DNA of 32,000 nt, taken from Candidatus Syntropharchaeum caldarium (lineage in GTDB: Archaea > Halobacteriota > Syntropharchaeia > Syntropharchaeales > Syntropharchaeaceae). Both the position numbers and the translations under genes were made by a program. The DNA is taken from NCBI GenBank assembly GCA_001766815.1, contig LYOS01000001.1:300001-332000 (forward strand), given 5' to 3'. Below are positions 7,527 to 25,370 of the stretch, in pieces (the stretch's first letter is position 1; the number at the start of each line of letters is the position of its first letter). The notes under the pieces were generated by a model that was not told where the DNA came from, did not search any database, and was given only the letters and a program-made list of their open reading frames with translations.

Positions 7527-7548
7527 TACGAACTGTACAGATAAGGAG

Positions 7549-9651: not shown

Positions 9652-12600
9652 AGATTGGATGCATCATGTGGAGCGGGTACATTGCAACAATGGCAGAGGC
9701 TGCACGTGAGCTTGACTTTCTTGAGATGAACCTCAAATCTCTGAAGGATCTTGAGGATGCAAGAAAGCGGGGTGAGTTTCTCGATTACCTTGAGAATGAA
9801 GCTGATGTAATCCTTGTGTTGCACTCAGGCTTCGACGGGACGCTCGATGAGATTCTATCCCAGGTCAAGGATAAGTTTATCATATCTTTTGGCTACACAG
9901 CCTCCTTCCTCTCTTCAAGAGTGAGTGCCAGGCAGGTAGGTATGATCTACCGTTACCTGAGACACGGTGGGATCGAGAACCATAAAAACGCTCTTACCTA
10001 TATCGCAAAGGAGTTCTTCGGGATCGATATTGAGGTTGAACCTCCAGCAGAGACGCCGTGGGATGGGATATATCACCCCAGGTCTCCTGTTCCTTTCTAC
10101 TCGATCGAGGATTATATCGAGTGGTATGGAGAGGAGCGGATGGGGAGAAATCCAACTGCTGGATTGATCTTCTACAAGACTCACCTTGTCATGGAGAATC
10201 CGGAGCTTGAAGATGCCATCATTGAGGCACTGGAAAAACGAGGGATCAACGTCATTCCGGTATTCTCATGGGGCTTTCCAAACCAGGAGCTTGGAATTAG
10301 GGAGAACCATGACGTCATTAACGATTACTTTATGAGAGATGGCAAACCCATCATAGATCTCCTGATCGATCTCCAATCCTCATTCCTGATACATACTGGT
10401 GATAGAAGTATTCTGGAAGAGATGGACGTCCCGATCATAAAGGGTGTGATCGTATATCATAGAAGTGAGGATGAGTGGCAGGATGATGAACATGGGCTTG
10501 GTGGTGAGCTTGTATGGTCGGTTGTCATGCCCGAGTTTGAGGGGATAATAGAGCCACTTGTTGCAGGTTCAAGGGTGAGAGAGGAGATAGGAGGAGGGAC
10601 ATTTGAACGCTTCTCTCCGATAGAAGAGCGAGTTTCTCATCTCGCAGATAGGGTTTTGAAGTGGGTCAATCTCAGGAAAAAACCAAAAATAGAGCGAAAG
10701 ATCGTGTTCATCCTTCATAACAATCCATGTTCAGGGCTTGAGGCAAACGTTGGTGGAGGATCAAACCTCGATACACTCGAGAGCGTCGTAAGGATTCTGA
10801 AAAGGATGAAAGAAGAGGGCTACTCGATAGAAGATATACCAGCTGATGGCAGAGAGCTTATAGATCGGATAATGGATAGAAAGGCAATATCAGACTTCAG
10901 GTGGACATCTGTTGATGAGATCGTTGAGAAAGGTGGTGCGATTTACCTTCTTGATGAAGAAGATTACAGGTCATGGTTTGATGGACTCCCCGCTGATGTT
11001 AGGGAGAGGATGATCGAAAGCTGGGGCACACCTCCAGGGAATGCGATGGTATATGATGGCAGAATCGTTATAACCGGGCTTGATCTTGGGAATGTGCTTG
11101 TTTGCACCCAGCCAAAGCGGGGATGTTATGGTGCAAGATGTGATGGAAGTGTCTGTAAGATCCTCCATGATCCAGATGTTCCACCAACACATCAGTATCT
11201 TGCGACATACAGGTTTTTTGAGAGGGTCTGGGGTGCGGACGGAATCGTGCACGTCGGCACGCACGGAAACATCGAGTTTCTACCAGGAAAGTCTGTTGGG
11301 CTTTCAGGAAGCTGTTATCCGGATATTGCGATTGGAAGTCTGCCCCACCTCTACATCTACTCGGTTGATAACCCTTCGGAAGGTATCGTTGCAAAGCGAA
11401 GGTCGTATGCGACACTTGTAGATTATATGCTCCCTGTGATGACCGCAAGCGGAACGTATGGAAAACTAAATGAGCTTGAGCAGCTTCTGGGAGAGTATGA
11501 GCTTGCAAAGGTGGGAGATCATGCAAGGGCGCATGCACTTGAGCATCTGTTACTTGAGGCGATCGATGAGGCGAATCTCGGTGATGAGATCGGATTTTCT
11601 GAGGAGATGGCATTTGAAGAGGTTGTAAAAATAACACATGATGCAATCTCGAGGATAAAAGGATCGCTTATAAACAGGGGGCTCCACATATTCGGAGAAG
11701 TTCCAGAGGGGGAAATGAAGGTTGAGCTTATAACATCGATGATACGTTTCGATGAGGATGTGAAGAAGCTCTTTGATAATGATCGGGATCGTCTCAGGGA
11801 GGCTGTATCAGGTATCCTTGAGGGTAAAGATGACGTGATCGCTCCCCAGGTTAAAGACATCTCAGAAAGGATCGATCGCTGCAAAAATGAGATCGATAAT
11901 CTTCTTCATGGATTTGACGGAGGTTACATAGAACCAGGACCCTCCGGACTTCCAACCCGGGGCAGGTGGGATGTGCTTCCCACAGGAAGAAACTTCTACA
12001 CACTCGATCCAACAAGAATTCCCACGAGGGCTGCATGGAGGGTTGGAAGGAAGCTTGCAACAGGTTTAATAGAAAAGTATGAGCGTGAGACTGGCAGGAT
12101 TCCTGAAAACTGCGGGATGATACTCTTCTCAACCGATATAACATGGGCAGATGGTGAGGAGCTTTCACAGATCTTTTACCTCATAGGCGTTGAACCTGAA
12201 TGGGATGAATCTGGAAGGGTCAACGGGTTCAGAATAATCCCGCTTGATGAGCTTGGAAGACCGAGGATCGATGTTACTGTGAGAATCAGCGGGATAATGA
12301 GAGATTCATTCATGCAGATCATTGAACTTCTCGATGAGGCGATAAGACGGGTTTCAGAGCTTGATGAACCCCCTGAGCTGAATTTTATTAGAAAGCATGC
12401 GCTGGCGCAGGCAAACGCAGGACAGGAGTGGTCGCGTGCTGCAACAAGGATATTTGGATCAAAGCCAGGGACGTACGGTGCAGGGGTTAACCTTGCGGTC
12501 AATGCATCGGCATGGAAAGATGAAGAGGATCTTGCTGATGTATTTGTTTACTGGAGTGGCTATGCCTATGGAAAAGGAATCGATGGTAAGGAATCACACG

Positions 12601-13280
12601 AGGAACTTTTGAATCAGCTTAAAACAGTTGATCTCTCCTTCAGATCCAACCCAACTGATGAGCATGATCTCTTCGGATGCTGCTGCTACTTCGGATATCA
12701 TGGAGGATTGACCGTTGCTGCACGCTCCCTTTCAGGGAAAGAGGTTAAGGCTTACCATGGTGATACGAGAGATCCTTCAGATGTACGGGTGACAGATCTC
12801 AAAGATGAGATAAAGCGGGTTGTGAGGACAAAGCTCCTCAATCCAAAGTGGATCGAGGGGATGAAGGAGCATGGATACAGGGGGGCGTCTGAGATCTCTG
12901 GCAAGGTTACAAGGGTTTATGGCTGGCAGGCAACCACGCGTGAGGTGGATGACTGGGTCTTCGATGATATAGCCCGGACGTATATTCTTGATGATGATAT
13001 GCGAGCGTTCTTTGAGGAGAACAACCCTTATGCACTTGAGGAGATGGGAAGAAGGCTACTGGAGGCTTATGAACGGGATCTCTGGGACCCTGATCCTGAA
13101 GTCTTGGATGAACTTAAGAGATACTACTTGGAGATCGAGGGATGGATCGAGGGGCGAATGGGAGGTGTCTCCGGGGTCCAGGGAGGATCGATCGATGTTT
13201 TTACGATGGAAGAGGTTGAGGAGTGGAAGGGAAAGATGGAGAAGGTTGCAAAATGGACAAAGGAAACAGATCTAAAGTGA
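9648..13280 (+). CDS. cobN: CobN/ChlH-family class I chelatase large subunit
   Basis: 1210 aa with the family motif '[15 protein letters not shown]' and a '[12 protein letters not shown]' region. It is coupled to the ChlID gene. The metal and tetrapyrrole substrates are unknown. Confidence 0.9.
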
Positions 13281-14368
13281 GCAGATCAGAGGTAAAAGAA
13301 GAATACAGAAGTTTTATCCGGCAGAGGATCCTCTTCGTCCTCATACTCCTTGTGATCACGCCACTTCTTGTGGGCTATGCTGCAACGCTTGGCTCCGCCG
13401 ATATATCTGTAAAGGCTGCCTATGATGCGATACTCCATAGGTTCTTCCCTGATCGTTTCAATCCTGCACCAACTGAAAAGCTTGATTCTGGTACGATCGT
13501 GACAATCCTCTGGACATTGCGACTTCCAAGGATCGTGCTTGGCATCCTTGCAGGGATCGGTCTTGCTCTTGCAGGAGCTGTGATGCAGGCGATACTCAAA
13601 AACCCCCTTGCATCTCCTTATACCTTAGGGATAGCATCGGCCGCATCCTTTGGTGCATCGCTTGCGATAATACTTGGGGTTGGATTGGTTGGAGGAGAAC
13701 ATCTCATCATCGCAAACGCCTTTATATTCGCGATGATCGCAGCGTTACTCATCTATCTGCTCTCGATAAAGAGAACCTCACCTGAGATGATGGTGCTTGC
13801 AGGTATTGCGATCATGTATCTATTCTCTGCGATGACCTCCTCACTCCAGTATATGGGAGAGGCAGAAGAGGTTCAGGAAGTGGTTTACTGGATGTTTGGA
13901 TCACTCGGCAGGGCAGACTGGGAATCATCGTTCCCGTATGGGAATATCGGGATCATCGCGATGGTACTTCTTGTCACAATCCCATATCTGCTCTTGAAGT
14001 CATGGGACCTCAATGCTTTAGGAGCAGGGGATGAGACCGCAAAGAGCCTCGGTGTGAGGGTTGAACGGATCAGAATAACCTGCATGTTCATCGCATCCTT
14101 TATAACAGCATCGATAATAGCTTTCACAGGCACGATCGGTTTCATAGGGCTTGTCTGCCCACATATAACAAGGATGATGATCGGATCTGATCACAGGTTT
14201 CTTCTACCTGGGACATGCCTCACAGGTGCGGTGCTCCTGCTTGCTACAGATACGGTTGCAAGAACGATTGTTGCACCTGTGATACTTCCTGTCGGAATCG
14301 TGACAGCTTTTATGGGTGTTCCGCTCTTTGTGTATCTTCTGATGAGGCAGAGGGGTGGTTACTGGTGA
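13277..14368 (+). CDS. FecCD-family (BtuC/FepD-like) ABC permease
   Basis: Multi-span hydrophobic protein with typical 'LRLPRIVLGILAGIGLALAGAVMQ' and 'GAGDETAKSLGV' motifs. The start is uncertain: the GTG at 13277 gives a GTGA overlap with the cobN stop, and ATGs at 13223 and 13253 are also in frame. Confidence 0.85.
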   Translation: MSRSEVKEEYRSFIRQRILFVLILLVITPLLVGYAATLGSADISVKAAYDAILHRFFPDRFNPAPTEKLDSGTIVTILWTLRLPRIVLGILAGIGLALAGAVMQAILKNPLASPYTLGIASAASFGASLAIILGVGLVGGEHLIIANAFIFAMIAALLIYLLSIKRTSPEMMVLAGIAIMYLFSAMTSSLQYMGEAEEVQEVVYWMFGSLGRADWESSFPYGNIGIIAMVLLVTIPYLLLKSWDLNALGAGDETAKSLGVRVERIRITCMFIASFITASIIAFTGTIGFIGLVCPHITRMMIGSDHRFLLPGTCLTGAVLLLATDTVARTIVAPVILPVGIVTAFMGVPLFVYLLMRQRGGYW

Positions 14369-15138
14369 AGCTTAAGATAAAAGATCTCACGTTCAGTTAT
14401 CCAGGCCATACGATACTTGATGGTATTACGGTCGAGATTGAGCCTTCAGAGTTCTTCGGTATCATAGGTCCAAACGGGACAGGTAAGACCACGCTCATAA
14501 AGTGCATCGACACAATCCTGAAGCCACACGGCGGTTGCGTCATGCTTGATGGAATGGAAGTGAGAGATCTTGATAAACGAGAGCTTGCAAGAAAGATCGG
14601 ATATGTTCCGCAGCATGCTCCAGGAGGCTTTCCTGCCACGGTATTTGATACGATTCTGATGGGAAGGCGTCCCTATATCGGATGGCGAGTCACGGAGAGC
14701 GATATTGATAAGGTTCTTGAGACCGTGGAACTTCTCGGGATAGAGGAGTTATCACTTCGCACCTTCAGTGAATTAAGCGGTGGTGAGCGGCAGAAGGTAC
14801 TGGTTGCCCGTGCACTCTGTCAGGACCCGGAAGTTCTCCTCCTGGATGAGCCGACATCCAATCTCGATATTAAGCACCAGCTTGAAGTCATGAAGATAAT
14901 ACAGACGATCACAAAAAAGCGTGGAATCCTGGCGATAATGGCGATCCATGATCTCAATTTAGCCTCCCGTTATGCAGACAGGGTCGCGATGATGCACGGG
15001 GGAAAGATTGCAGCGGTTGGTACGCCCGAGGATGTGCTAACCGTTGAGAACATAAGATCGGTCTATGGCGTTGAGGTCGCTGTCAGGAACGATGGGGGTA
15101 AGCCATATATTCTACCTATAAGACCTGTGGAAGTTTGA
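14365..15138 (+). CDS. FepC/BtuD-type ABC ATP-binding protein
   Basis: Walker A 'GPNGTGKTT', signature 'LSGGERQKV', Walker B 'VLLLDEPTSNLD', H-loop 'AIHDLN'. The GTG start at 14365 ('VKLKIKDLTF') overlaps the permease stop (GTGA). The track ORF from 14215 would lie inside the permease gene. Confidence 0.9.
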   Translation: MKLKIKDLTFSYPGHTILDGITVEIEPSEFFGIIGPNGTGKTTLIKCIDTILKPHGGCVMLDGMEVRDLDKRELARKIGYVPQHAPGGFPATVFDTILMGRRPYIGWRVTESDIDKVLETVELLGIEELSLRTFSELSGGERQKVLVARALCQDPEVLLLDEPTSNLDIKHQLEVMKIIQTITKKRGILAIMAIHDLNLASRYADRVAMMHGGKIAAVGTPEDVLTVENIRSVYGVEVAVRNDGGKPYILPIRPVEV

Positions 15139-15216
15139 GGATGAAAGTTCCCTGGTAAAGGCTGAGAGATGGGATGTATCCGATGTTGAAGCAGAAAACG
15201 ATAGAATAGATACCTG

Positions 15217-15330
15217 GTTATTCATAATAACATTGCTATAATAATTTTTTATTAATTAAGACTCCAATTCAATCATGATTTTATGAGGAATGGAGGTATT
15301 ATTGAACGAATCTGAACATAACATAGTTTA
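15217..15330 (+). promoter_or_regulatory. candidate mcr operon promoter/leader, homologous to the promoter and 5' end of the binding-protein gene at 1992-2076
   Basis: TATA-like 'TTTATTAATTAAG' at 15248-15260 is identical to 1992-2004. A 6-3-6 palindrome 'GTTATTCATAATAAC' lies at 15217-15231. A relic RBS 'GGAGG' and a relic start codon (ATG->ACG at 15306-15308) follow. The mcrB ATG is at 15429, implying a long leader. Confidence 0.5.
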
Positions 15331-15428
15331 ATAAAGTTATGGGATGTGATTACGGGGTGGAACAAAAAAGAATGCTAATAACAATAATTATATATAGTAG
15401 ATGGGTAATTACATGGTGGAGGAATTAC

Positions 15429-16784
15429 ATGCCATACCCATATTTAAAAGATAGGGTTAGTCTATACAGTGACCGTGGAGAGGTCCTTGCGGAAGATGTA
15501 CCAATCGAAGCAATATCTCCTCTTCACAACCCAGGCGCACAGCAGGTGAAAGACACACTTTGCCGAACCATTCTCTGGAATGCAGAAGAAGCAGAGTATA
15601 AGATAAAGTCAGGGCACCTTGGGGATGAATATATCCACATACCGCGGACGCCATGGCTAGCAATGGAAGATTATGAAATCATGGCGAACATCGAGAAGAT
15701 CGCCAAGCGTGTCGAGGAACTTTTAAGGACAGCACCTGATGATGATACCGAGGTTCAGATACTGAGGGGAGGGCGTTATCTATTGGTTAGGCCACCAACA
15801 AGGCTTGCCTGGTGTGGTATTGAATACCAGACAGCACTGACGAACGTGGCTTACGCCATTGAGCAGGCGTGCGTTGATGTCTGTGATGCTGACTGGAGAA
15901 CATATCCATACATCCATGCCGCCATCTATGGGAGATTCCCGCAGACACCTGAGTATGACGGTTCATCACTCAGATGGATGCTGAAGCCTGTTATCGAGGA
16001 TGAAAACCCGGGCTATGCTCTCAGGAACATGCTGATCAACCATATTGCAGCATGTACAAGATCAAGAACACTTGAGGCTGCCGCCCTATGTTCGCTCCTT
16101 GAGACGATATCAGTTGTCGAGATGGGTGAAATGCTTGGACCATGGTACAGGCACTACCTAATGACGATGGCGTACCAGGGTTTCAATGGAAACGATCTCG
16201 TGCGAGATATACTGAAGGAATGCGGGCAGAACGGTACAATGGCAGATGTCGTTGCATATACGGTCGAGCGAATGATTGATGATGGCGTAATAAAGGAGAA
16301 GAAAACCTTCCCGTCTGGTTACAAGATGTATGAGAGTGTGGATGAGGATCTCAGACATGCCTACCTGTCTTCTGGTATGCTTGCAGCAACCATCGTGAAC
16401 TGTGGTTCAGCCAGGGCAGCACAGGGTGTCATGACCAGTATCTATTACTTCAATGACCAGATGGAAATGGAAACCGCACTGCCATGCACAGGATATGGTG
16501 TCTCGATGGGAACAGCTCTTGCATCAGGGTTCTTCTCGCACACGATCTACGGTGGTTCAGCGCCGGGTCTCTACTCAGGAAACCACGTCATCACCAAGAC
16601 AGGTAAGGTTTACTATATGCCATGTTATGCAGCAGCAGTTGCGATCGATGCTGGAACACAGACCTGGACACCCGAGATGACATCCGAGTTTGTCGGTGAC
16701 GTCTACTCAGAGATCGACATCATCCGTGAGCCGATGGAAGCTATCGCGGAAGGTGCGCTCGAGATAAAGAGTAAGTTTGAATGA
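15429..16784 (+). CDS. mcrB: methyl/alkyl-coenzyme M reductase beta subunit (divergent)
   Basis: The N-terminus 'DRVSLYSDRGEVLAEDVPIEAISPLHNP' matches the McrB consensus ('DLYDDRG..L...VPLEA.SPL.NP'). 'PGYALRNMLINH', 'GSARAAQGV' and 'GFFSHTIYGGSAPG' (beta Phe361/Phe362/Tyr367 region) are all present. The ATG at 15429 is preceded by 'GGAGGAATTAC'; the track ORF start at 15339 is rejected. Confidence 0.93.
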   Translation: MPYPYLKDRVSLYSDRGEVLAEDVPIEAISPLHNPGAQQVKDTLCRTILWNAEEAEYKIKSGHLGDEYIHIPRTPWLAMEDYEIMANIEKIAKRVEELLRTAPDDDTEVQILRGGRYLLVRPPTRLAWCGIEYQTALTNVAYAIEQACVDVCDADWRTYPYIHAAIYGRFPQTPEYDGSSLRWMLKPVIEDENPGYALRNMLINHIAACTRSRTLEAAALCSLLETISVVEMGEMLGPWYRHYLMTMAYQGFNGNDLVRDILKECGQNGTMADVVAYTVERMIDDGVIKEKKTFPSGYKMYESVDEDLRHAYLSSGMLAATIVNCGSARAAQGVMTSIYYFNDQMEMETALPCTGYGVSMGTALASGFFSHTIYGGSAPGLYSGNHVITKTGKVYYMPCYAAAVAIDAGTQTWTPEMTSEFVGDVYSEIDIIREPMEAIAEGALEIKSKFE

Positions 16785-16795
16785 GGTGATCTAAA

Positions 16796-17638
16796 ATGGG
16801 TGCTGAAGAAATTTTAAAGCAGCAGGTTGAAGCTGCCAAAGAAAGGATGGCAAAGCGAAAGTACCAGCGTCAGTATTACCCTGGAAGCACGATGGTTCCC
16901 GAAAACAGAAGGAAGTTCTATGATCCAATCAGGCCACTTGAGGTATTGAGAACGCTTACAGATGAGGACTTCCAGAACCTGCTTGGTTTCAGGGCGCTTG
17001 GACAGCGTTATCTCTCGGTTCACCCACCACTCGAGGAGATCGGTGAGCCAGACGATCCTATACGAGAGCTTGTCCCTGCAGATGCAGGTGCAAAGGCTGG
17101 TGATCGTATCACAACAATGGTGATGAGTGACTCACTGACACACCCGCTCATCGGTCCTTATACCAGAATCTGGATGTATCTTAATCGATTCAGGGGGATC
17201 GATGGCGCTTCATACTCTGCGCGAACAACGCTCGAGATGAGAGAGCGAGAGATGGAAGGTGTCTCTCGTGTCATCATCGAGGCCGAGTGCTTCGATCCTG
17301 CGAGGGATGCATTCAGGCAGTTCGGATGTACTGGGGCGTCATCCAGGCTTGACAAAAACGGGCTCTTCTTTGATCCGATGGCACGAATCGAATACGATCC
17401 TTCAACAGGACACTACATGCAGGTGAAGGACGGATTCGGCATTCCGCTGGATAAACCTGTCGATCTCGGTCCAACACTCCCTGAAGAAGAGAAGGCAAAG
17501 CGAAACGTCATGTACATGAATACAGATGGAAATCCTGTACTTGCAGGTCCTGAGTGGGAAGTACTGGTCGTCAAGCGAAGGATACAGGCGCTGAGGTTCC
17601 TTGCAGGGATGGGACCGTATAAGTTGAATGGTAAGTGA
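16796..17638 (+). CDS. mcrG: methyl/alkyl-coenzyme M reductase gamma subunit (divergent, approx. 25-aa N-terminal extension)
   Basis: 'QYYPGSTMVPENRRKF', 'SVHPPLEEIGEPDDPIRELV', 'GAKAGDR', 'YLNRFRG' and 'FDPAR' match McrG hallmarks. It is 280 aa versus the usual ~250 aa. Confidence 0.92.
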   Translation: MGAEEILKQQVEAAKERMAKRKYQRQYYPGSTMVPENRRKFYDPIRPLEVLRTLTDEDFQNLLGFRALGQRYLSVHPPLEEIGEPDDPIRELVPADAGAKAGDRITTMVMSDSLTHPLIGPYTRIWMYLNRFRGIDGASYSARTTLEMREREMEGVSRVIIEAECFDPARDAFRQFGCTGASSRLDKNGLFFDPMARIEYDPSTGHYMQVKDGFGIPLDKPVDLGPTLPEEEKAKRNVMYMNTDGNPVLAGPEWEVLVVKRRIQALRFLAGMGPYKLNGK

Positions 17639-17648
17639 GGTGATATGA

Positions 17649-19850
17649 ATGGCAGAAGAAATTAAACTTGATCCTGAACTTCTTGCAAAGCTCTGTGAGC
17701 GAAAGATACGATCATGGCAGACCGATAATGCAGAACTCCTGAAAGCTACCAGGGCCGATCTGACTGAAGCCGAGCGTGCAGAGCTTCTCGAGAAGATGTA
17801 TGACGATGAAGAGGCGCTCAAGAAGGTTTTCCAGACCATGGGAAATCCGCAAGTGGCTGTTGGGATGGAATTTACCAGAGAGGGAGGAGATATCAGTGAC
17901 GAGGAGATGAAGGAAATCTGTGATCGATGGGGACTCACAAGAGAAGAAGTCGATCAGATATGTGATGAACTCTGGATCTCCGAACGTGATATTGCAACCT
18001 GTCCTGGTTTCCTCTTCGGAAGAGGTGTTCCACATCCGGACCAGGGAGACACCCCCGAGGCTAAAGATGATCCAACCCAGTCGATCTGGTACCACCGCCT
18101 GATGAAGACACAGATGCAGCTTGCGATGCACGAGTATGGAACGTACCAGCGTGCGATGAATGAGTCGGTACTGGCAAAAGGTTTTGGCGTGGAAGATGTA
18201 CGCGAAGAGACAACCGAGTATCCAGCAGGAGGTATCAGTCAGGTTCCAGAGAAGCTTGAATATGTTAAGGTCTCAAAGGAGATCGAGAAGCAGCGTGGTA
18301 TCTCACTCTACAGACCACACCTGCACTGGCATGGTATCGAGCTTGGACAGAAGCCATACGTCAAGTGGAAGATAACCGCAACGCATATGCAGCGACCATG
18401 CAGGACTTTCGATGGTCTCTCGATGGAACAGATAAACTTCCTGAACAACGCAGCCTGCCACCAGTGGATGGCTGATGTCCAGCGGACACACATATTCGGT
18501 CTGGATCTTGCCCACAGAACGGTTGAGAGACGATTCGGTAAGGAGGTTACCCCTGACTCGATCAACCTGTACATGGAGATGCACAACCACAACATCGCAG
18601 CAGGTTCACTGATCATGGAACACATCGGTGAGACTGATCCAAGGCTTGTTGCAGACTCCTATGTCAAGATTATAACAGGCAACGAGGCGATGCTCGAGGT
18701 GCTCGATCCACAGTACATAATCGATGTGAGGCAACTCTTCCCCGAGTATCAGGCATCACAGATCATGAACCAGATCGGTGATAAGCTCTTTGAGGTTGCA
18801 CGTATCCCGACACTTATCACGATGATAGGTGATCACGGGACAACAAGAGGATGGACAGGACAGCAGGCATCACTTGCGTTCCTCTCAGCATACAGAATCC
18901 CTGCAGGTGAGGCAGTAACAAGTGACTTCGTCTATACGGTTAAGCATGGAGATAACATTTTCATGGGTAACAGGTTGCCATGGAGGCGTGCCAAGATGGT
19001 AAACAATCCTGGCGGTGTATCATTTGGATATGCAGCCGATATATCACAGGCATCACGAGCTCCTGAGTCACAGGATCCATTTGATCCAGTGAACGTCTTC
19101 CTCGAGAGTGTGGCATGGTCTGGATACTATGATATCGGGTATCTCCACAACTACCTTGCAGGCGGTTCATCTGGATGGACACAGGTCATGATCACCCAGG
19201 GCTACTGCTCAGATATCGACAACGACTTCTGTTACAGGACACTCGATGCTGATACAATGACCCACTTCATGGGACTTGACTTTGCACCAACAAGTATGGA
19301 CTCACTCTACACTGCAACTGAAGGTATCGTTAAGTACGGTATGGAGTACTTTGACAAGATGCCGATCGCTCAGGAAACACTCTACGGAGGGCTCCAGCGC
19401 GCAGCTCTGATCTCAGCAGTCGGAGGTGCATCCACGGCATACTTCTGCAGAACTCCAACCTTTGGACTGCCTGGATTCTACCACGGTCTCCTGCTTTGTA
19501 AGGAAGGCTGGAACAGGCTCGGATTCTATGCATCCGATGGTCCACACCAGCAGGGAACATTCCATGCATACACCCTCATCGGTGAGTATGGAGGTCCACT
19601 TGAGTTAAGAGGTCCAAACTACCCAGACTACAACTGGTCAGTCGCACATCTTGGTATATACACTGCATACGTCAATGGGCCACACTTCCTCTGTGGACAT
19701 GGATACTCATGCAACCCGATCGTACACGGAGCATTCGCAGATCCATCGCTACTCTTTGACTTTGCCCACGTAAGAAGAGAGGTTGCAAGAGGAGCGGTCC
19801 ATGAGTTTATGCCCGCAGGTGAGCGTGACGTCGTTATACCGGCACACTGA
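17649..19850 (+). CDS. mcrA: methyl/alkyl-coenzyme M reductase alpha subunit, highly divergent (733 aa; long N-terminal extension; altered active-site motifs)
   Basis: Conserved McrA blocks: 'FLNNAACHQWMADVQRT', 'RRFGKEVTPDSINLY', 'VARIPT', 'VKHG...LPWRRAK..NPGGVSFGY', 'GGLQRA', 'RLGFY', 'ELRGPNYPDY', 'NPIVHGAFAD', 'EFMPAGERDVVIPA'. The first canonical block (KRGIP.YNPD-like 'KQRGISLYRP') only starts at residue ~214. Confidence 0.93.
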   Translation: MAEEIKLDPELLAKLCERKIRSWQTDNAELLKATRADLTEAERAELLEKMYDDEEALKKVFQTMGNPQVAVGMEFTREGGDISDEEMKEICDRWGLTREEVDQICDELWISERDIATCPGFLFGRGVPHPDQGDTPEAKDDPTQSIWYHRLMKTQMQLAMHEYGTYQRAMNESVLAKGFGVEDVREETTEYPAGGISQVPEKLEYVKVSKEIEKQRGISLYRPHLHWHGIELGQKPYVKWKITATHMQRPCRTFDGLSMEQINFLNNAACHQWMADVQRTHIFGLDLAHRTVERRFGKEVTPDSINLYMEMHNHNIAAGSLIMEHIGETDPRLVADSYVKIITGNEAMLEVLDPQYIIDVRQLFPEYQASQIMNQIGDKLFEVARIPTLITMIGDHGTTRGWTGQQASLAFLSAYRIPAGEAVTSDFVYTVKHGDNIFMGNRLPWRRAKMVNNPGGVSFGYAADISQASRAPESQDPFDPVNVFLESVAWSGYYDIGYLHNYLAGGSSGWTQVMITQGYCSDIDNDFCYRTLDADTMTHFMGLDFAPTSMDSLYTATEGIVKYGMEYFDKMPIAQETLYGGLQRAALISAVGGASTAYFCRTPTFGLPGFYHGLLLCKEGWNRLGFYASDGPHQQGTFHAYTLIGEYGGPLELRGPNYPDYNWSVAHLGIYTAYVNGPHFLCGHGYSCNPIVHGAFADPSLLFDFAHVRREVARGAVHEFMPAGERDVVIPAH

Positions 19851-19864
19851 GGAGGTAGTTAAAA

Positions 19865-20395
19865 ATGGTACTAACATTTGCATCACCCGAATGGTGTGAG
19901 GCTATAGGGAAGAGTATCAGCGAGGGACCACACAGTCACTGGTTCAAGTCATGTATGGAGGATCTCAAGGCAGGACTTGGTATCGGTGAGATTACGATGG
20001 TTGCAAGAGCGACTGATGCTAACGTCGCACTGGTCTGCGAGCTTACAACCGATGGTTGCAAGAACTGCTACATGACAACAGATCCTGATAGTGTACCAGA
20101 TGTCTTTATCGAGCTTTCTGGGACGCTGCACTCATGGCTCTCCGTACTCTGCGGACTCCAGCCAACATTTACAACGCTGGTTGGCCCCGTCTCATCGGAT
20201 ATCGACCGCAGGATCAACATAACGAAGTTTGCGGGAGGAATGGAAAATATCCCTTCACAGATCATGAAACCACTACCGTTGAACCTGCTGTACGCAGTCA
20301 CGCATGCTATAAAGGATGTCTGCATAGGACCAACCGATGTGACAGAGGTTCCAGGTGTGAATCTGGATATACTGATGGGCAGGGTGCACCACTAA
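19865..20395 (+). CDS. hypothetical protein, possibly SCP2-like hydrophobic-ligand-binding fold
   Basis: 176 aa, starting 14 nt after mcrA with a GGAGG RBS. The pattern 'SPEWCEAIGKSI...', a central 'ELTTDGCKNCYMTTDPD..PDVFIELSGTLHSWLSVLCG.L.P' and a helical tail resemble SCP2-type domains. This is a weak by-eye call with no similarity to McrC or McrD. Confidence 0.35.
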   Translation: MVLTFASPEWCEAIGKSISEGPHSHWFKSCMEDLKAGLGIGEITMVARATDANVALVCELTTDGCKNCYMTTDPDSVPDVFIELSGTLHSWLSVLCGLQPTFTTLVGPVSSDIDRRINITKFAGGMENIPSQIMKPLPLNLLYAVTHAIKDVCIGPTDVTEVPGVNLDILMGRVHH

Positions 20396-20408
20396 GGAGG
20401 GATGTTAA

Positions 20409-20822
20409 ATGACTGTTGACAAACCAGAACGAGAAACAGAGATCGCGGGACACAAGGTGAGGATCTACCCGGATCCATCATACCCGAGGCTCTCATGGGA
20501 AGAGGACTACGGCGCACCTGGACATAAGTTCCAGCTCAAAGGTGCAAACGCAGCAGGTCCATGTATTGTGAAGTGTCCAACCTGTGGACACACAATGCGC
20601 AAGTGGCACCTGCCGGGGAAGGCGTTCATCGTGCCACCTGACAGGAAGATCGCAAAGACCGTCTTTGAGTACTGTTCAAAGTGCGGCTCTATTATCGTCC
20701 TGAATGGTGTGCTTGCATCACCATGGGTTTCACCGGAACGTGTCAAGTGTCCCTACGACCTGAGCATAAAGAAGTTCAGTAAGCAGGAAAGAGAAGTTTT
20801 GCCAGACGATAGAGGGTGGTAA
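20409..20822 (+). CDS. small zinc-ribbon protein (4-Cys), function unknown
   Basis: 137 aa with 'CPTCGH' ... 'CSKCGS' about 35 residues apart. An AAGGAGG RBS is present, 13 nt after the preceding stop. Confidence 0.6.
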   Translation: MTVDKPERETEIAGHKVRIYPDPSYPRLSWEEDYGAPGHKFQLKGANAAGPCIVKCPTCGHTMRKWHLPGKAFIVPPDRKIAKTVFEYCSKCGSIIVLNGVLASPWVSPERVKCPYDLSIKKFSKQEREVLPDDRGW

Positions 20823-20828
20823 TACCCC

Positions 20829-20846
20829 TCTTTCTTTTATTTTTGT
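20829..20846 (+). terminator. T-rich tract, possible partial or attenuating archaeal terminator inside the operon
   Basis: 'CTTTCTTTTATTTTTG' lies directly after the zinc-ribbon gene stop. It is the only oligo-T intergenic tract between mcrB and the end of the operon. Confidence 0.25.
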
Positions 20847-20855
20847 GAGGTTTTG

Positions 20856-21365
20856 ATGGACGACGAACTCGATGAAATACGGCAGAAGAAGCTTGATGAG
20901 CTGACAGAAAAGATGGGAATCCAGGTGATGCAGAAGAAAGAGCGTAAGGTGGAGGAAGATGATGGTGGAATCTATGATCTTGTACTTCCCGGATGGATAC
21001 CACCATGGGTTGCAGAGAAGATTGCTCCCGAGGTGGGTGTTGAGCTTGTGGAGCGAAAGATACAGGGAGTGGTAACAGATCCTGAGACAGGTGCACCATC
21101 TGATATGATGAAGATGGCGCTGTGCATCAGGGGATCGCTTAACGACATAGAACGATTCAAAATGGCAGCGGTTGAACAGCTCAAGCAGTTTATGAAGAGT
21201 ACAAGTGAGCGAAAACTCACAGAACCATCAAGCTGGTGGAAACACTATCATATCGACGAATGGGATGATGTCAGAAAGAACAAGAACTATGACCCTGATG
21301 AAGAATGGAAGAGGTTTAAGAAAGCGGGGTTGGATAAATTCAACATTGAAGAAGTTTTTAAATGA
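20856..21365 (+). CDS. acidic hypothetical protein
   Basis: 169 aa from the ATG at 20856 (the track starts at an adjacent TTG, 20853). The N-terminal helix 'DDELDEIRQKKLDEL' is reminiscent of PDCD5-like proteins, but the rest is unrecognised. The C-terminus is Trp/Asp-rich. Confidence 0.55.
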   Translation: MDDELDEIRQKKLDELTEKMGIQVMQKKERKVEEDDGGIYDLVLPGWIPPWVAEKIAPEVGVELVERKIQGVVTDPETGAPSDMMKMALCIRGSLNDIERFKMAAVEQLKQFMKSTSERKLTEPSSWWKHYHIDEWDDVRKNKNYDPDEEWKRFKKAGLDKFNIEEVFK

Positions 21366-21368: not shown

Positions 21369-22946
21369 ATGCAACTGCTTAAATTAAAAAATGTATCACT
21401 TGTTCTGAATGAAACAGAGTTACTTAGCTGTTTAAATTTTGAGATCAATGAGCAGGATATCATTGGTATCACTGGCAGGCGTGGTGCTGGAAAAAGCCTG
21501 CTACTACATCTGATAAAAGGGGTCGAGGGATACGAACCTGTAGCAGGAGAGATACGCTATCACATACGTTTCTGTGAAAGATGTAAACGTGTGGAGTTAC
21601 CTTCAAAGCCCACCTGTCCGATCTGCCACTCGCAGATGGAATTGCTCGATATAGACCTGCATGCTGATAAACAGATCCATGACGCGATAAAAAGACGTGT
21701 AGGACTGATGTTTCAGAAGACACAGGCACTCTTCTCATTCAGAACTGTGGAGGAGAATATACTCGAAGCCCTCAGAACAGCAAAGTTCCCATATGAGATG
21801 CGGGATGAGCGTACCCGTGAGATCATCGAGATGATGAATATAACACATAGAAGGGAGTTTGCCTGTATGGATTTGAGCTGTGGTGAGAAGCAACGGGTAA
21901 TAGTTGGGAGACTCATCGCACTCGACCCGCTCCTGATGCTCCTTGATTCGCCAGAAAGTTTCCTTGATCCTTTAACCACCTCGATGATCTGCAGTGCGAT
22001 ACGTGCTGCAGGTCTCACGGTTATGATGAGTTCATCGAGACCTCAAATATTCGAAGGTATCGCTGACAGGATACTTTTTCTCGATAAAGGAAAGATTGAG
22101 CAGTTTGACAGGGTCGATCCAGAGATGTTTGTGCAATCCACGCAATTAACTCCCACGCAAAGATCAGAAGGGGCGCCCCTCATACGGCTTAAAGGCGTAT
22201 GTAAGTACTATGCCATGCCGGTAAACCTCTACAGCAAAGAAGCGACGCATGTCAGGGCGGTTGACGATCTTGATATCACAATCCAGCGGGGTGAGATACA
22301 CGGGCTTGTGGGTGTAAGTGGATCTGGAAAGAGCACGATTCTCAAGATTATCTGGGGAGATGAGAAGACAAAAGATTTTAGGGGTAACTGCGAGTTCACA
22401 TTCACTGATGGAAGATATCGCCTGGATAGTCTGGAGGCGATCGCTCGTGCACGTACTCACATCTCATATCTTGGTCAGGACTCGTGTCTAATTCCATCCC
22501 GTACGATCTTCGATAACCTGAAGTCCTTTATCGCTGAAGATAAATTGCGGGAAGCAGCAATCGATAATGCTATGGAAGTCTTACTGCGCTTTGGATTTAG
22601 TGAGGAGGAGGTGCTCTCGCTCTATGATCGATTGCCATCTGAGATCAGTGCAGGTGAGGCACAGTTAATACTTATATCGATGGCAATTCTCCGCGATCCG
22701 GAGGTGATCCTGCTCGATGATCCCACATCTGCACTTGATGCTCAATCTGCAGCAAAACTTGCAGACGTGATACTTCAGATCAGAGCTACGTGTGGAACCT
22801 CGTTCCTCATAGCTTCAAACGACACCGATCTTCTTACAATATGTGATCATATTGATCTGATTCAGGAAGGACGCATGGCATACTGTGGCACGTCTCTCAA
22901 TGAATGCCTTAAGATCATGGACATAAACAATTCCCAAAGCTTATAA
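21369..22946 (+). CDS. atwA: methyl-coenzyme M reductase system component A2-like protein (tandem ABC ATPase domains)
   Basis: 525 aa with two ABC domains. The first is 'GITGRRGAGKSLLLHLIKGVEGYEPVAGEIRYHIRFCERCKRVELPSKPTCPICHS', that is, Walker A followed by the Cys4 insert remembered as typical of component A2. Signatures are 'LSCGEKQRV' and 'ISAGEAQLI'. The second Walker A is 'GVSGSGKST'. Confidence 0.8.
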   Translation: MQLLKLKNVSLVLNETELLSCLNFEINEQDIIGITGRRGAGKSLLLHLIKGVEGYEPVAGEIRYHIRFCERCKRVELPSKPTCPICHSQMELLDIDLHADKQIHDAIKRRVGLMFQKTQALFSFRTVEENILEALRTAKFPYEMRDERTREIIEMMNITHRREFACMDLSCGEKQRVIVGRLIALDPLLMLLDSPESFLDPLTTSMICSAIRAAGLTVMMSSSRPQIFEGIADRILFLDKGKIEQFDRVDPEMFVQSTQLTPTQRSEGAPLIRLKGVCKYYAMPVNLYSKEATHVRAVDDLDITIQRGEIHGLVGVSGSGKSTILKIIWGDEKTKDFRGNCEFTFTDGRYRLDSLEAIARARTHISYLGQDSCLIPSRTIFDNLKSFIAEDKLREAAIDNAMEVLLRFGFSEEEVLSLYDRLPSEISAGEAQLILISMAILRDPEVILLDDPTSALDAQSAAKLADVILQIRATCGTSFLIASNDTDLLTICDHIDLIQEGRMAYCGTSLNECLKIMDINNSQSL

Positions 22947-23570: not shown

Positions 23571-25370
23571 ATGGCTGTAGATAAAAGAGAAAAGATACGA
23601 TATTTCAAAAAAACGCTCGAAGAGGAAGCGCAGCGGGCGATGCAGGAGTTCCAGATACATCAGGCTATTGCCGCAGAGGTAGCGAGGGAGCGCAAAATTG
23701 AAGAGCCAAAAAAAGTGCTGGATGAGAACATATCGGTGATAAGGGCATTCCATGACGCCGTAAAAACAGCATTTGGTCCCCGGGGTTCGTATAAGATGAT
23801 GGTGGATTCCTATGGTGAAGTCGATGTCACATGTGACGGTTCACTCATCATCGATGAGATGGATATAGAGCATCCAGCAGGCAAGATGCTGGCATCCACA
23901 ATCGAGAACCTGAACGAACTTGGGGATGGTGCGACAAAGACGGTGATACTCACAGGAGCACTCCTCAGGGAGGCAGAATCACTGATTTCGATGAAGATAC
24001 ATCCTGCTACGGTCATACGGGGCTATGAACTTGCATCGGCCTTTATTAGAGATACACTCAATGATCTGGCCATCGTGAGTGATGACGCCACATTGCTTGA
24101 GGTTGCAAGAACATCGCTTACCTCCCTCCCTGATCTTTCCGATGAACTGCATGAGCGTATCGCCGCGACGGTCGTCGATGTTGCAAAGTCGGTAACTGAG
24201 GAGGATGAAGTAGGGAAGAGAATAGTACAGCGAAAACGTGTGTGCGTGGAGCGGTCTGTTGGTGGAAGCACGTCTGAGCTTGAAACCCTGGATGGCATCA
24301 TTATCAACAGAGATCTTCTTGATGAAGATATGCCAGATCGTGTGGAAGATGCGAGGATTGCGTTGCTTGACTTCCCGCTGGAGATAAAGATGAAACGCGT
24401 GGAAGAGAAGTTCATGCGCGAGCGGCAGGGTAGTGATAAGCCGTATATTGCAATTAATGCTCCACCAGGTGTCAGCCCTGTGAAGGCGATGCTGGATCAT
24501 CTCGACAGGTTGATGCAGGATGATATCGATAAGTTGCAGCGTCTTGGTGTCAATGTTCTCTTCTGTCACAGGACGATCGATGAGGTTGCTAAGCGCTATC
24601 TAACAAAAGCCGGGATATTTGCGGTAAAACGGGTGGAAAGTAGTGTTCTCAGGGATCTTGAGAAGACCACCGGTGCAAAGACTGTAATTCTGCTTAAAGA
24701 TCTTTGCGAGGATGATATAGGAACCGCCTCGCTTGTTGAAGTGAGAAGATTTGGCAGAAACACGATGATCGTGGTTGAAGGCTGTCCTGGCGAGAGATTC
24801 AGGTCGGTTATGCTTCGAGGTGGAACACTTCATTCGATAAATGAGGTCCAGCGCGCATTTATGCGAACACTTAAGGTGGTTGCAGCTGCTATCGAGGAGA
24901 ATAAAGTGATCACTGGGGGTGGGCATACCGAGATTGAACTTGCGTTACGCCTCAGAACGTACGCCAATAGACTTTCAGGGAAGGAGCAGTTTGCAGTCTT
25001 ATCGTACGCAGATGCCCTTGAGATGGTCCCTGCAGCACTTGCAGAGAATATGGGCTATAACAGGGTTGATAAAATCGTTGAACTACGTTCAAAGCACAGA
25101 TCAGGCGATAAAATCGATACGAAACTGGTTGAACCACTCAGGATAGAGCGGCAGGTGGTATCTTCGGCAACAGAGCTTGCATGCGCCCTGCTAAGGATAG
25201 ATTACCAGATAAATGCCAAGAACAAGCTATCGACGCTGGATCAACAGTCCGTGGAACCACACCCAGATACTCCATCGGAATGCTTAGAGTATATGGCACC
25301 GCGACAGTGGGGCCTATGGGATGCACGAATGCGCACAGACAAGAGATCAGTTTACTGGAAGAATGACTGA
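23571..25370 (+). CDS. thermosome-like group II chaperonin (Cpn60/TCP-1 family) homologue, divergent
   Basis: 'AFGPRGSYKMMVDSYGEVDVTCDGSLIIDEMDIEHPAGKM', 'LGDGATKTVILTGALLREAE', 'IHPATVIRGYELA', 'GVNVLFCHRTIDEVAKRYLTKAGIFAVKRV' and 'VITGGGHTEIELALRL' align block-for-block with thermosome subunits. It has a ~45-aa N-terminal extension and an atypical Trp-rich C-terminus. An AAGGAG RBS is present. Confidence 0.85.
   Translation: MAVDKREKIRYFKKTLEEEAQRAMQEFQIHQAIAAEVARERKIEEPKKVLDENISVIRAFHDAVKTAFGPRGSYKMMVDSYGEVDVTCDGSLIIDEMDIEHPAGKMLASTIENLNELGDGATKTVILTGALLREAESLISMKIHPATVIRGYELASAFIRDTLNDLAIVSDDATLLEVARTSLTSLPDLSDELHERIAATVVDVAKSVTEEDEVGKRIVQRKRVCVERSVGGSTSELETLDGIIINRDLLDEDMPDRVEDARIALLDFPLEIKMKRVEEKFMRERQGSDKPYIAINAPPGVSPVKAMLDHLDRLMQDDIDKLQRLGVNVLFCHRTIDEVAKRYLTKAGIFAVKRVESSVLRDLEKTTGAKTVILLKDLCEDDIGTASLVEVRRFGRNTMIVVEGCPGERFRSVMLRGGTLHSINEVQRAFMRTLKVVAAAIEENKVITGGGHTEIELALRLRTYANRLSGKEQFAVLSYADALEMVPAALAENMGYNRVDKIVELRSKHRSGDKIDTKLVEPLRIERQVVSSATELACALLRIDYQINAKNKLSTLDQQSVEPHPDTPSECLEYMAPRQWGLWDARMRTDKRSVYWKND

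What the first reader, a model, noticed from the sequence alone, without database searches (positions are those of the whole stretch)
17649..18290. About 175 extra residues at the N-terminus of the alpha subunit, plus a 25-aa extension on gamma
SEEN: the first recognisable McrA block ('EIEKQRGISLYRPHLHWHGIELGQKPY', equivalent to canonical '..KRGIP.YNPDIG.PLGQR..', normally near residue ~45-60) begins only at residue ~211. The offset to M. marburgensis numbering is a constant +176 from residue 147 to 271. The extra sequence (residues 1-~170) is helical and acidic ('AERAELLEKMYDDEEALKK', 'DISDEEMKEICDRWGLTREEVDQICDELW') and includes a Pro/Asp-rich linker ('GVPHPDQGDTPEAKDDPTQ'). McrG also starts with an extra 'MGAEEILKQQVEAAKERMAKRKYQR' (16796-16870) before the canonical 'QYYPGST'. 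ESTABLISHED: McrA proteins are normally ~550-580 aa. INFERENCE: the extension may be an added surface domain, for example a substrate-tunnel cap, partner docking site or oligomerisation element. Loop extensions forming a gas tunnel were described for ECR, but I do not recall an N-terminal domain of this size.
Basis: partly seen in the sequence, partly recalled or inferred. Interest (0 to 1): 0.7.

Follow-up and report, generated by a model that had tools for sequence, protein, structure and literature searches.

The report
Real N-terminal add-on domain on an alkane-activating reductase
One of the four methyl-coenzyme-M-reductase-like enzymes of the butane-oxidising archaeon Candidatus Syntrophoarchaeum caldarius carries about 165 extra residues at the start of its alpha subunit; a 2022 review called this suspicious, but the extra stretch is conserved, selected protein sequence, and it sits directly in front of the N-terminal 'latch' that controls access to the nickel cofactor.

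Summary
The window is from Ca. Syntrophoarchaeum caldarius, and the 733-aa McrA is OFV68676.1. Its canonical fold starts at residue ~175, so about 165 residues are extra. McrG has about 20 extra residues.

Lemaire & Wagner (2022) flagged this extension as 'suspicious', possibly a wrong start codon, and left it undiscussed. My evidence says it is real:
- An identical SD (GAGGTGAT) lies 4 nt before the ATG, and that ATG is 10 nt after the mcrG stop.
- The same open frame occurs in two other lineages on independent contigs: 88% identity (JGI) and 62% (a Methanospirareceae/ANME-1 MAG).
- dN/dS is 0.20 (95% CI 0.11-0.32), with a third-position excess of substitutions (p=3e-5).
- All indels are in-frame, and no internal Met has a usable SD.

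The domain is an orphan: there was no homologue among 1.84 billion representative proteins, Pfam, NCBIfam or PDB. It is acidic and predicted all-helical, with a Pro/Asp-rich linker. AlphaFold models were poor.

The gamma extension occurs only in operons whose alpha has the extension. A bona fide component A2 gene lies 1.5 kb downstream.

The function is inferred, not shown. I propose an accessory module on the alpha N-terminal latch that affects assembly, activation or partner docking. This is a new variant of a known kind, of moderate interest.

The parts
17637..17644 (+). Shine-Dalgarno GAGGTGAT, 4 nt upstream of the mcrA ATG. The same octamer precedes mcrG at 16782-16789.
   Evidence: Sequence. 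It is identical in locus L002, and GGGGGTGA sits at the equivalent place in L001.
17649..18146 (+). N-terminal extension of the alpha subunit (residues 1-166). It comprises a helical acidic module (res ~9-118), a Pro/Asp/Gly-rich linker (res 119-145) and an extra helix (res 146-162).
   Evidence: No Pfam, NCBIfam or PDB match. The only homologues are orthologues P0001 and P0002. dN/dS is 0.20. The AF2 secondary structure is all-alpha. Net charge is -17 and pI 4.5.
17895..18002 (+). Best-conserved core of the extension (res 83-118, 'SDEEMKEICDRWGLTREEVDQICDELWISERD'). It forms three short helices, has invariant C91, W94, C105 and W109, and carries the repeated motif EE[MV]xxICD.
   Evidence: This is the only segment with pLDDT 61-79 in both AF2 runs. 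Invariant columns are, and the motif repeat has p~0.02. UBA-like/AMPK-AID hints were weak and non-significant.
18147..18290 (+). Start of the canonical McrA fold: the N-terminal 'latch' helix equivalent (res ~170-180, L175/F179) and the beginning of MCR_alpha_N.
   Evidence: The alignment to solved McrA starts at query 173-188, and Pfam starts at 176. The latch role of the canonical helix comes from PMC12176620 and PMC10288656.
17649..19850 (+). mcrA/acrA, 733 aa (= OFV68676.1), an ECR-related alkyl-CoM reductase alpha subunit.
16796..16861 (+). N-terminal extension of the gamma subunit (res 1-22, 'MGAEEILKQQVEAAKERMAKRK'). It is basic, with pI 9.5.
   Evidence: It is present in the window and L001, and absent in L003 and in all solved gamma chains.
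16796..17638 (+). mcrG, 280 aa (= OFV68675.1).
15429..16784 (+). mcrB. The real start is probably ATG 15429 (451 aa), preceded by the SD GGTGGAGG. It has no N-terminal extension.
19865..21365 (+). Three small ORFs of unknown function: 176 aa, 137 aa (with CxxC...CxxC) and 170 aa. The first two are conserved downstream of mcrA in every extension-bearing operon seen; the 170-aa ORF was seen only in the contigs nearest the window (L002, L004, L005), not in L001. All three are absent from the non-extended L003 operon.
21369..22946 (+). Component A2 (AtwA) homologue, with two ABC domains and the N-terminal Zn-binding motif C69/C72/C83/C86.
   Evidence: TIGR03269 scores 342 bits, E 3.5e-102, below the equivalog cut-off. 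The motif was read from the translation. The ZBM criterion comes from bioRxiv 10.64898/2026.03.18.712670.

Best explanation
SHOWN. The 733-aa reading frame is the real alpha subunit of an ECR-related alkyl-coenzyme M reductase of Ca. Syntrophoarchaeum caldarius. Its first ~165 residues are a translated, selectively constrained, lineage-specific orphan domain. The domain has three parts: an acidic, all-helical module of ~115 aa; a ~27-aa Pro/Asp-rich, poorly conserved linker; and an extra helix that runs into the canonical N-terminal helix. A ~20-aa basic helix on gamma co-occurs with it.

INFERRED. In canonical MCR, the alpha N-terminal helix and domain cap the F430 side of the active site. 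They act as the 'latch' that McrD (cofactor insertion) and McrC, Mmp3 and A2 (reductive activation) grip, and A2 also binds gamma. So the two extensions most likely form a surface module at the alpha-N-terminus/gamma corner of the hexamer. That module would stabilise or gate the latch and/or serve as a docking handle for the assembly and activation factors encoded in the same cluster: component A2, three conserved unknown ORFs and a thermosome. The catalytic core would work as in other ACRs. My confidence that the extension is genuinely part of the protein is ~0.9. My confidence in the latch/activation-docking role is ~0.3.
For: Start site: the SD GAGGTGAT lies 4 nt before ATG 17649, which is 10 nt after the mcrG stop. 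This is identical in L002, and GGGGGTGA plus ATG sits 18 nt after mcrG in L001. No internal Met at residues 50-189 has a properly spaced SD, and M152, M156 and M160 are not conserved.

Coding constraint, window vs L002: the extension has dN/dS 0.20 (bootstrap 95% CI 0.11-0.32), against 0.10 for the core. Substitutions by codon position are 32/17/55 (p=2.6e-5). Against L001, synonymous sites are saturated (pS 0.91) while pN is 0.37, and substitutions by position are 73/53/110 (p=2.4e-5). Frame 0 has 0 stops against 5-17 in the other frames, and all indels are multiples of three.

Independent assemblies: the S. caldarius 492-kb contig, JGI 3300009431 (L002) and NCBI GCA_054798995.1 (L001) all span mcrG-mcrA continuously.

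Clade specificity: relatives at 40-47% identity are 573-640 aa and lack the domain. phmmer of residues 1-175 against 1.84e9 representatives finds only the orthologue cluster.

Gamma extension: it is present in both operons whose gamma N-terminus could be read (window, L001). It is absent in L003 and in all 20 solved gamma sequences. The charges are complementary: alpha extension net -17, gamma extension pI 9.5-10.3.

[quoted passage not shown] McrC wedges into the N-terminal helix. A2 and Mmp3 sandwich L12/F16 of McrA, and A2 binds McrG electrostatically. The equivalent L175/F179 are retained here.

Gene cluster: it contains an A2 with a Zn-binding motif, an MCR glutamine C-methyltransferase and a thermosome. 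A2 is reported to co-evolve with ACR versus MCR.
Against: There is no direct evidence of translation, because neither proteome nor transcript 5' ends were accessible. The first 49 codons show only a weak codon-position signal: 10/7/17 (p=0.10) and 28/24/33 (p=0.49). M50 is conserved, so a start at M50 cannot be rigorously excluded for that segment. The functional inference rests on the position of the canonical N-terminus taken from papers on methanogen MCR, not on a model of this enzyme. The AF2 models were unusable: mean pLDDT 34 and 45. Co-occurrence of the alpha and gamma extensions rests on only two independent lineages. Other ACRs and MCRs of the same organisms work without such a domain, so it is not generally required. 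The A2 gene is also found next to mcr genes that have no extension.
Confidence: 0.45

Rival explanations
1. Generic surface decoration. The extension is a real domain whose role has nothing to do with the latch or activation. Examples are thermostabilisation, higher-order oligomerisation of hexamers, or docking of the unknown downstream enzymes that convert alkyl-CoM.
For: The domain is acidic, hydrophilic and helical, with a flexible linker, which is typical of an interaction module. It evolves ~3x faster than the core, dN 0.15 vs 0.045. A ~810-kDa trimer-of-hexamers MCR has been reported in Ca. Methanoperedens and discussed as serving regulation or partner contact (review). The organism is a thermophile.
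Against: Nothing distinguishes this reading from the latch hypothesis except location. The extension is covalently continuous with the latch helix, so any docking there will affect the latch. There is no coiled-coil or known oligomerisation motif, and no family hits.
Confidence: 0.3
2. Substrate gating. The extension caps or forms an alkane access tunnel. It would functionally replace the ECR-specific loop insertions that are missing from this enzyme, and so set substrate specificity.
For: The closest solved relative is ECR, whose tunnel mouth is built from insertions in alpha, beta and gamma. The window clade lacks the ECR alpha insertion 'WAGGEDTPAHKGWKPGTD' and the gamma C-terminal insertion. 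It would therefore need another solution if a tunnel exists.
Against: The domain is strongly acidic and hydrophilic (GRAVY -0.73), which is unlike a hydrophobic gas tunnel. It is separated from the core by a poorly conserved, probably flexible linker. No structural model is available.
Confidence: 0.1
3. Annotation artefact, as suspected by Lemaire & Wagner 2022. Translation starts at an internal Met, and the upstream frame is not part of the mature protein. A variant is that both long and short isoforms are made.
For: The review explicitly raises this. M50 and M170 are conserved in all three orthologues. The first 49 codons show weak constraint. Two environmental contigs begin exactly at the M50 ATG.
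Against: There is purifying selection and third-position bias across residues 50-166. The ORF is open in three lineages with only in-frame indels. A strong SD precedes the first ATG, and no properly spaced SD precedes any internal Met. The gap from the mcrG stop is 10-18 nt. A start at M152-M170 would leave ~500 nt of conserved 'non-coding' ORF.
Confidence: 0.07
4. Assembly chimera or frameshift that fuses a separate small gene to mcrA.
For: L004 and L005 break at the same nucleotide inside the extension.
Against: Three independent assemblies at 62-100% identity have the same uninterrupted frame and the same mcrG-SD-ATG junction. No free-standing homologue of the extension exists in 1.84e9 representatives.
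Confidence: 0.02

Closest known systems
Ethyl-coenzyme M reductase (ECR) of Ca. Ethanoperedens thermophilum, PDB 7B1S/7B2C
   Same: It is the best solved match for both alpha (E 6.6e-151) and gamma (E 1.9e-76). It has the same Met in place of the Gln axial Ni ligand (Met323, 'LIMEH'). The operon is mcrBGA without mcrC or mcrD.
   Different: ECR alpha is 595 aa and has no N-terminal domain, and ECR gamma has no N-terminal helix. The window enzyme lacks the ECR tunnel-forming alpha insertion and the gamma C-terminal insertion. Identity to ECR-type sequences is only ~42-47%.
Canonical MCR alpha N-terminal 'latch' (M. maripaludis activation complex, PMC12176620; M. acetivorans McrABGD, PMC10288656)
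   Same: The latch-equivalent helix with its hydrophobic pair (L175/F179, matching L12/F16) is retained directly after the extension. A component A2 with a Zn-binding motif is encoded in the same cluster.
   Different: In canonical MCR the latch is a free N-terminus. Here about 165 residues precede it, and gamma, the A2-binding subunit, also carries an extra helix.
'Suspicious' N-terminal extension of Ca. Argoarchaeum ethanivorans McrA (RZB32666.1-type; P0036, 640 aa)
   Same: It is another ECR-family alpha subunit with extra N-terminal residues, flagged in the same review.
   Different: Its extension is only ~36-45 aa and has no sequence similarity to the S. caldarius extension (not found). 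I did not test whether it is real.
McrD (MCR assembly chaperone)
   Same: It has a similar size (~160 aa), and it binds where the alpha N-terminal domain sits. ANME-1 is reported to lack mcrD.
   Different: There is no Pfam MCR_D hit. [quoted passage not shown]

Membership tests
MCR/ACR alpha subunit (coenzyme-B sulfoethylthiotransferase alpha) | Both Pfam domains, MCR_alpha_N (PF02745) and MCR_alpha (PF02249), score above the gathering threshold. | tested here: met
   251.5 bits (cut-off 27) and 65 bits (cut-off 25).
MCR/ACR alpha subunit (coenzyme-B sulfoethylthiotransferase alpha) | The gene is encoded with beta and gamma subunits in one operon. | tested here: met
   mcrB 15429-16784, mcrG 16796-17638 and mcrA 17649-19850.
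Canonical methanogenic/methanotrophic MCR (NCBIfam equivalog TIGR03256) | The score is above the curated equivalog cut-off of 767.75 bits. | tested here: not met
   476.2 bits. This is a divergent ACR-type enzyme, not a canonical MCR.
Ethane-specific ECR | The closest sequence relationship is to solved ECR, and Met is the lower axial Ni ligand. | tested here: met
   7b1s_A is the best PDB hit, and Met323 aligns with the ECR Met in 'IMMEH'. The review also notes Met in OFV68676.1.
Ethane-specific ECR | Tunnel-forming insertions are present in the alpha and gamma subunits. | tested here: not met
   The alpha insertion 'WAGGEDTPAHKGWKPGTD' is present in P0035, P0036 and P0037 but absent in the window clade. 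The gamma insertions of 7b1s_C appear as gaps in the query.
Ethane-specific ECR | A dimethylated F430 cofactor and ethyl-CoM formation. | not testable with these tools
   This needs biochemistry.
McrD-like assembly chaperone (for the extension) | [quoted passage not shown] | tested here: not met
   There is no hit at E<=10. The predicted secondary structure is all-alpha, although the models have low confidence.
UBA-like / AMPK autoinhibitory three-helix domain (for res 83-118) | A significant profile or structural match. | tested here: inconclusive
   Pfam PF21147 gives E 0.01-0.03 at 14-16 bits, against a cut-off of 27. Foldseek hits to 2ltu and 4f2l have E 2.9-7.7 and probability <=0.08, on a low-confidence model.
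Component A2 (for the neighbouring gene 21369-22946) | Two ABC nucleotide-binding domains plus the N-terminal Cys4 zinc-binding motif. | tested here: met
   Pfam ABC_tran occurs twice. TIGR03269 is the best NCBIfam hit, at 342 bits, below the 517 cut-off. C69/C72/C83/C86 were read in the translation.

The most novel reading that the evidence does not exclude
The alpha extension and the co-occurring gamma helix form a built-in adaptor on the N-terminal latch that controls F430 insertion and Ni(I) activation. In effect this is a cis-acting assembly/activation module. It would be matched to a dedicated component A2 and to the conserved unknown ORFs of the same cluster, in lineages (Syntropharchaeia/ANME-1) where McrD is reported absent in ANME-1. 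That would make this the first ACR in which the regulatory latch has been elaborated into a domain.
Probability: 0.2. Interest if true: 0.75.

Novelty: new variant of a known kind. Interest (0 to 1): 0.5.

Why it matters
How MCR/ACR enzymes are assembled, loaded with F430 and reductively activated is the main obstacle to expressing them heterologously for alkane bioconversion. Structures from 2023-2025 identified the alpha N-terminal helix as the latch that all known assembly and activation factors grip. This natural ACR variant has that latch preceded by a conserved 165-residue domain, and the A2-binding gamma subunit is also extended. It therefore offers a ready-made experiment on how much the latch tolerates, and on whether activation partners are enzyme-specific. 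There is also a practical point. Phylogenies, structural models and expression constructs of OFV68676.1 should use the full-length protein and not the truncated version used in the 2022 review.

Tried and rejected
1. Remote homology of the extension.
- Pfam at E<=10, NCBIfam, a PDB profile search and phmmer against 1.84e9 representatives gave nothing significant.
- The two weak hits (P0005, P0006) are repetitive or artefactual proteins.

2. Structure.
- AF2 of the full-length protein with 5 sequences gave pLDDT 34. AF2 of residues 1-199 with 3 sequences gave pLDDT 45.
- Foldseek against PDB gave no hit with E<1.
- No conclusions about the fold were drawn beyond helical content.

3. Finding more clade members.
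- Two GTDB scans and two metagenome scans, using N-terminal and clade-specific alignments, found nothing.
- The word-indexed search with the N-terminal alignment failed even to recover the known orthologues. These negatives are therefore weak.

4. Paralogy with other ORFs of the window or loci: none.

5. Internal duplication within the extension: not significant, apart from a short EE..ICD motif.

6. My recollection that the 176-aa downstream ORF looks SCP2-like was not supported by Pfam.

7. Expression data.
- The Laso-Pérez 2016 paper is not held.
- No paper mentions the locus tags.
- No structural paper on Syntrophoarchaeum ACRs was found.
Full report
**What is there.**
The window carries an mcrB-mcrG-mcrA operon on the + strand:
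- mcrB, real start probably ATG 15429 behind the SD GGTGGAGG;
- mcrG, 16796-17638, 280 aa;
- mcrA, 17649-19850, 733 aa.

Exact-sequence look-up identifies the source as Candidatus Syntrophoarchaeum (Syntropharchaeum) caldarius, on a 492-kb contig. The alpha subunit is OFV68676.1 and gamma is OFV68675.1.

Pfam places MCR_alpha_N at residues 176-444 and MCR_alpha at 498-624. All 18 solved McrA sequences align only from query residues 173-188 onward. The best is the ethyl-CoM reductase of Ca. Ethanoperedens (7b1s_A, E 6.6e-151, query 188 = chain 33). M. marburgensis residue 10 equals query 175.

The N-terminal surplus is ~165 aa. The other 11 residues of the +176 offset come from two small internal insertions. 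The gamma subunit is ~20-23 aa longer at its N-terminus than every solved gamma chain, ECR included.

**Already noticed, but unresolved.**
Lemaire & Wagner (Biochemistry 2022, PMC9118554) state that OFV68676.1 shows 'a suspicious N-terminal extension'. Seitz et al. 2019 only call the protein a 'distant homolog'. I found no paper that resolves the question.

**Is the extension real?** Five lines of evidence say yes.
1. *Start context.* The octamer GAGGTGAT lies 4 nt upstream of ATG 17649, and the same octamer precedes mcrG. The gap from the mcrG stop to the mcrA start is 10 nt.
2. *Orthologues.* Two orthologues on independent assemblies have the same architecture.
   - P0001 is 733 aa and 88% identical, on JGI 3300009431 (locus L002). 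Its junction and SD are identical.
   - P0002 is 746 aa and 62% identical, from NCBI GCA_054798995.1, annotated Candidatus Methanospirareceae (order Methanophagales/ANME-1), locus L001. There GGGGGTGA precedes an ATG 18 nt after mcrG.
3. *Selection.*
   - Between the window and L002, residues 1-166 have dN/dS 0.20 (bootstrap 95% CI 0.11-0.32), against 0.10 for the core.
   - Substitutions fall 32/17/55 on codon positions 1/2/3 (p=2.6e-5).
   - Against L001, synonymous sites are saturated (pS 0.91) while pN is 0.37, with 73/53/110 by position (p=2.4e-5).
   - Frame 0 has no stop in any of the three genes, while the other frames have 5-17. All indels are in-frame.
4. *Internal starts.* None of the in-frame Met codons between residues 50 and 189 has a properly spaced SD. 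The AGGAG before M87 abuts the ATG.
5. *Chimeric assembly.* This is excluded by three contigs that span the junction.

There is one caveat. The first 49 codons carry only a weak codon-position signal (10/7/17 and 28/24/33), and M50 is conserved. For that segment the evidence is the open frame (0 stops vs 2-9 in the other frames), in-frame indels, and the SD/ATG immediately after mcrG. Oddly, two environmental contigs that are identical in sequence (L004 from JGI 3300014913, L005 from ENA ERZ27227317) both begin exactly at the M50 ATG, window position 17796. I regard this as an assembly-graph break, but it is unexplained.

**How widespread is it?**
The nearest other McrA sequences (47-40% identity over the core) are 573, 580, 580, 595 and 640 aa and lack the domain. 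The 640-aa Argoarchaeum-type protein has its own, unrelated ~45-aa extension.

An exhaustive phmmer of residues 1-175 against 1.84 billion cluster representatives found only the orthologue cluster, plus two spurious repetitive proteins. GTDB and metagenome pattern scans found no further members. These scans are weak negatives, because the word-indexed search failed even to recover known positives.

The extension is thus restricted, as far as can be seen, to a small clade. That clade is present in Syntropharchaeales and, if the binning is right, in one ANME-1-family MAG.

**Anatomy.**
The extension is acidic (net -17, pI 4.5) and hydrophilic. In both AlphaFold runs it is predicted entirely helical: H9-25, H40-49, H54-64, H84-94, H98-108, H112-117 and H146-162. 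Residues 119-145 are Pro/Gly/Asp-rich, poorly conserved and carry an indel, so they look like a linker.

Model confidence is too low for fold assignment, with mean pLDDT 34 and 45. Only residues 81-120 reach 61-79. This segment is also the best conserved, with invariant C91, W94, C105 and W109 and a repeated EE[MV]xxICD motif.

Pfam, NCBIfam, PDB sequence and Foldseek searches give nothing significant. The concordant but sub-threshold UBA-like/AMPK-AID hints are recorded as inconclusive. There is no paralogue in the window and no significant internal duplication.

**Gamma and neighbours.**
The gamma extension (MGAEEILKQQVEAAKERMAKRK, pI 9.5-10.3) is present in the window and in L001. It is absent from the operon of the closest non-extended relative (L003: alpha 573 aa, gamma 260 aa) and from all solved gammas. 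Beta has no extension.

Two small ORFs of unknown function, 176 aa and 137 aa (the latter with CxxC...CxxC), follow mcrA in every extension-bearing operon seen and are absent from L003. A third ORF of 170 aa follows them in the window and in L002, L004 and L005, but was not seen in L001.

Further downstream in the window lie:
- a component A2 homologue with Walker A and the Cys4 zinc-binding motif (TIGR03269, 342 bits);
- a 196-aa unknown ORF;
- a thermosome subunit;
- on the opposite strand, the MCR glutamine C-methyltransferase (TIGR04014, above cut-off).

**How it most likely works (inference).**
In methanogen MCR the alpha N-terminal domain caps the F430 side of the active site and is disordered before cofactor insertion. 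McrD sits between gamma, alpha and alpha', in the place of this domain (PMC10288656/bioRxiv).

In the ATP-driven activation complex, a McrC loop wedges into the N-terminal helix. Mmp3 and A2 sandwich L12/F16 of that helix. A2 binds McrG electrostatically, and the authors call the helix a 'latch' that regulates access to the F430 cavity (PMC12176620). A 2026 preprint reports that A2 has co-evolved with ACR versus MCR.

Here the latch-equivalent helix (L175/F179) is retained, but ~165 residues precede it. The A2-binding subunit gamma is also extended, with opposite charge, and a cognate A2 is encoded in cis.

The most economical reading is that the two extensions form a surface module at the alpha-N-terminus/gamma corner. 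That module would stabilise or gate the latch and/or provide a handle for assembly and activation partners.

This is a positional argument, not a demonstration. A generic docking, oligomerisation or thermostability role is nearly as likely. A substrate-tunnel role is less likely given the domain's acidic, hydrophilic character. [quoted passage not shown]

**Classification.**
The protein is a member of the MCR/ACR alpha family, since the Pfam criteria are met. It falls below the canonical-MCR equivalog cut-off (476 vs 768 bits).

It is ECR-related: ECR is the best PDB hit, and it has the Met axial ligand. It lacks the ECR tunnel insertions in alpha and gamma, so it should not be filed as an ethane-specific ECR.

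**Verdict.**
The extension is almost certainly a genuine, selected part of the protein (~0.9), which answers in silico a doubt raised in the literature. Its function is unknown, and the latch-module hypothesis is testable.

It is a new variant of a known kind. It is of moderate interest to MCR/ACR specialists, and of practical importance for anyone modelling or expressing OFV68676.1.

Noticed in passing
window 17796 (ATG of Met50 of mcrA); loci L004 and L005, position 1: Two environmental contigs (JGI 3300014913, 6983 bp; ENA ERZ27227317, 4276 bp) carry an identical mcrA and both begin at exactly the same base, the ATG of Met50 inside the extension. This is probably a shared assembly-graph break or strain variation upstream, but it is unexplained.
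   Followed up: partly
window 19865-20395, 20409-20822, 20853-21365 (+): Three small ORFs lie here: 176 aa; 137 aa with a CxxC...CxxC zinc-ribbon-like pair; and 170 aa, acidic. None has a family match. The first two are conserved directly downstream of mcrA in every extension-bearing operon seen (28% and 60% identity in L001), and all three are absent from the non-extended relative L003. They are candidate partners of the extension.
   Followed up: partly
window 21369-22946 (+): This is a component A2 (AtwA) homologue with two ABC domains and the Cys4 zinc-binding motif (C69/C72/C83/C86). It is encoded in the same orientation 1.5 kb after mcrA. It scores below the NCBIfam equivalog cut-off (342 vs 517 bits), so it is a divergent, possibly ACR-dedicated A2.
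   Followed up: partly
window 25352-26701 (-) and 23571-25370 (+): The MCR glutamine C-methyltransferase (TIGR04014, 461 bits, above cut-off) and a thermosome subunit flank the cluster. The locus therefore looks like an ACR maturation island. This fits the review's remark that the (methyl-)glutamine position is conserved in OFV68676.1.
   Followed up: no
window 18615-18617 (Met323) and ~18390-18420: The lower axial Ni ligand is Met ('LIMEH'), as in ECR. However, the ECR alpha tunnel insertion ('WAGGEDTPAHKGWKPGTD') and the ECR gamma insertions are absent. The enzyme is ECR-related but probably not an ethane-tunnel enzyme.
   Followed up: partly
window 2050-15138 (+): Upstream of the operon lie three periplasmic-binding-protein genes (Peripla_BP_2), ABC ATPases, an ABC-2 permease, a FecCD permease, a ChlI/ChlD-type chelatase ATPase (700 aa) and a CobN-type large chelatase subunit (1210 aa). 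This is a metal or tetrapyrrole uptake-and-chelation cluster next to a Ni-tetrapyrrole enzyme.
   Followed up: no
window 15339-15428: The mechanical ORF for mcrB (481 aa) overshoots. The real start is most likely ATG 15429 (451 aa), behind the SD GGTGGAGG (15415-15422). An AT-rich promoter-like region lies at 15200-15410.
   Followed up: yes
protein P0036 (640 aa, Argoarchaeum-type ECR alpha): It carries its own ~45-aa N-terminal extension, which is unrelated in sequence to the S. caldarius one. This is the second 'suspicious' extension named in the 2022 review. I did not test whether it is real.
   Followed up: no
window 17901-17930 and 17943-17975 (residues 85-94 and 99-109): A short repeated motif, EE[MV]xxICD[RE]xW, has invariant Cys91/Cys105 and Trp94/Trp109 in all three orthologues. 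With invariant His149/His161 it could in principle bind a metal. This is pure speculation.
   Followed up: no
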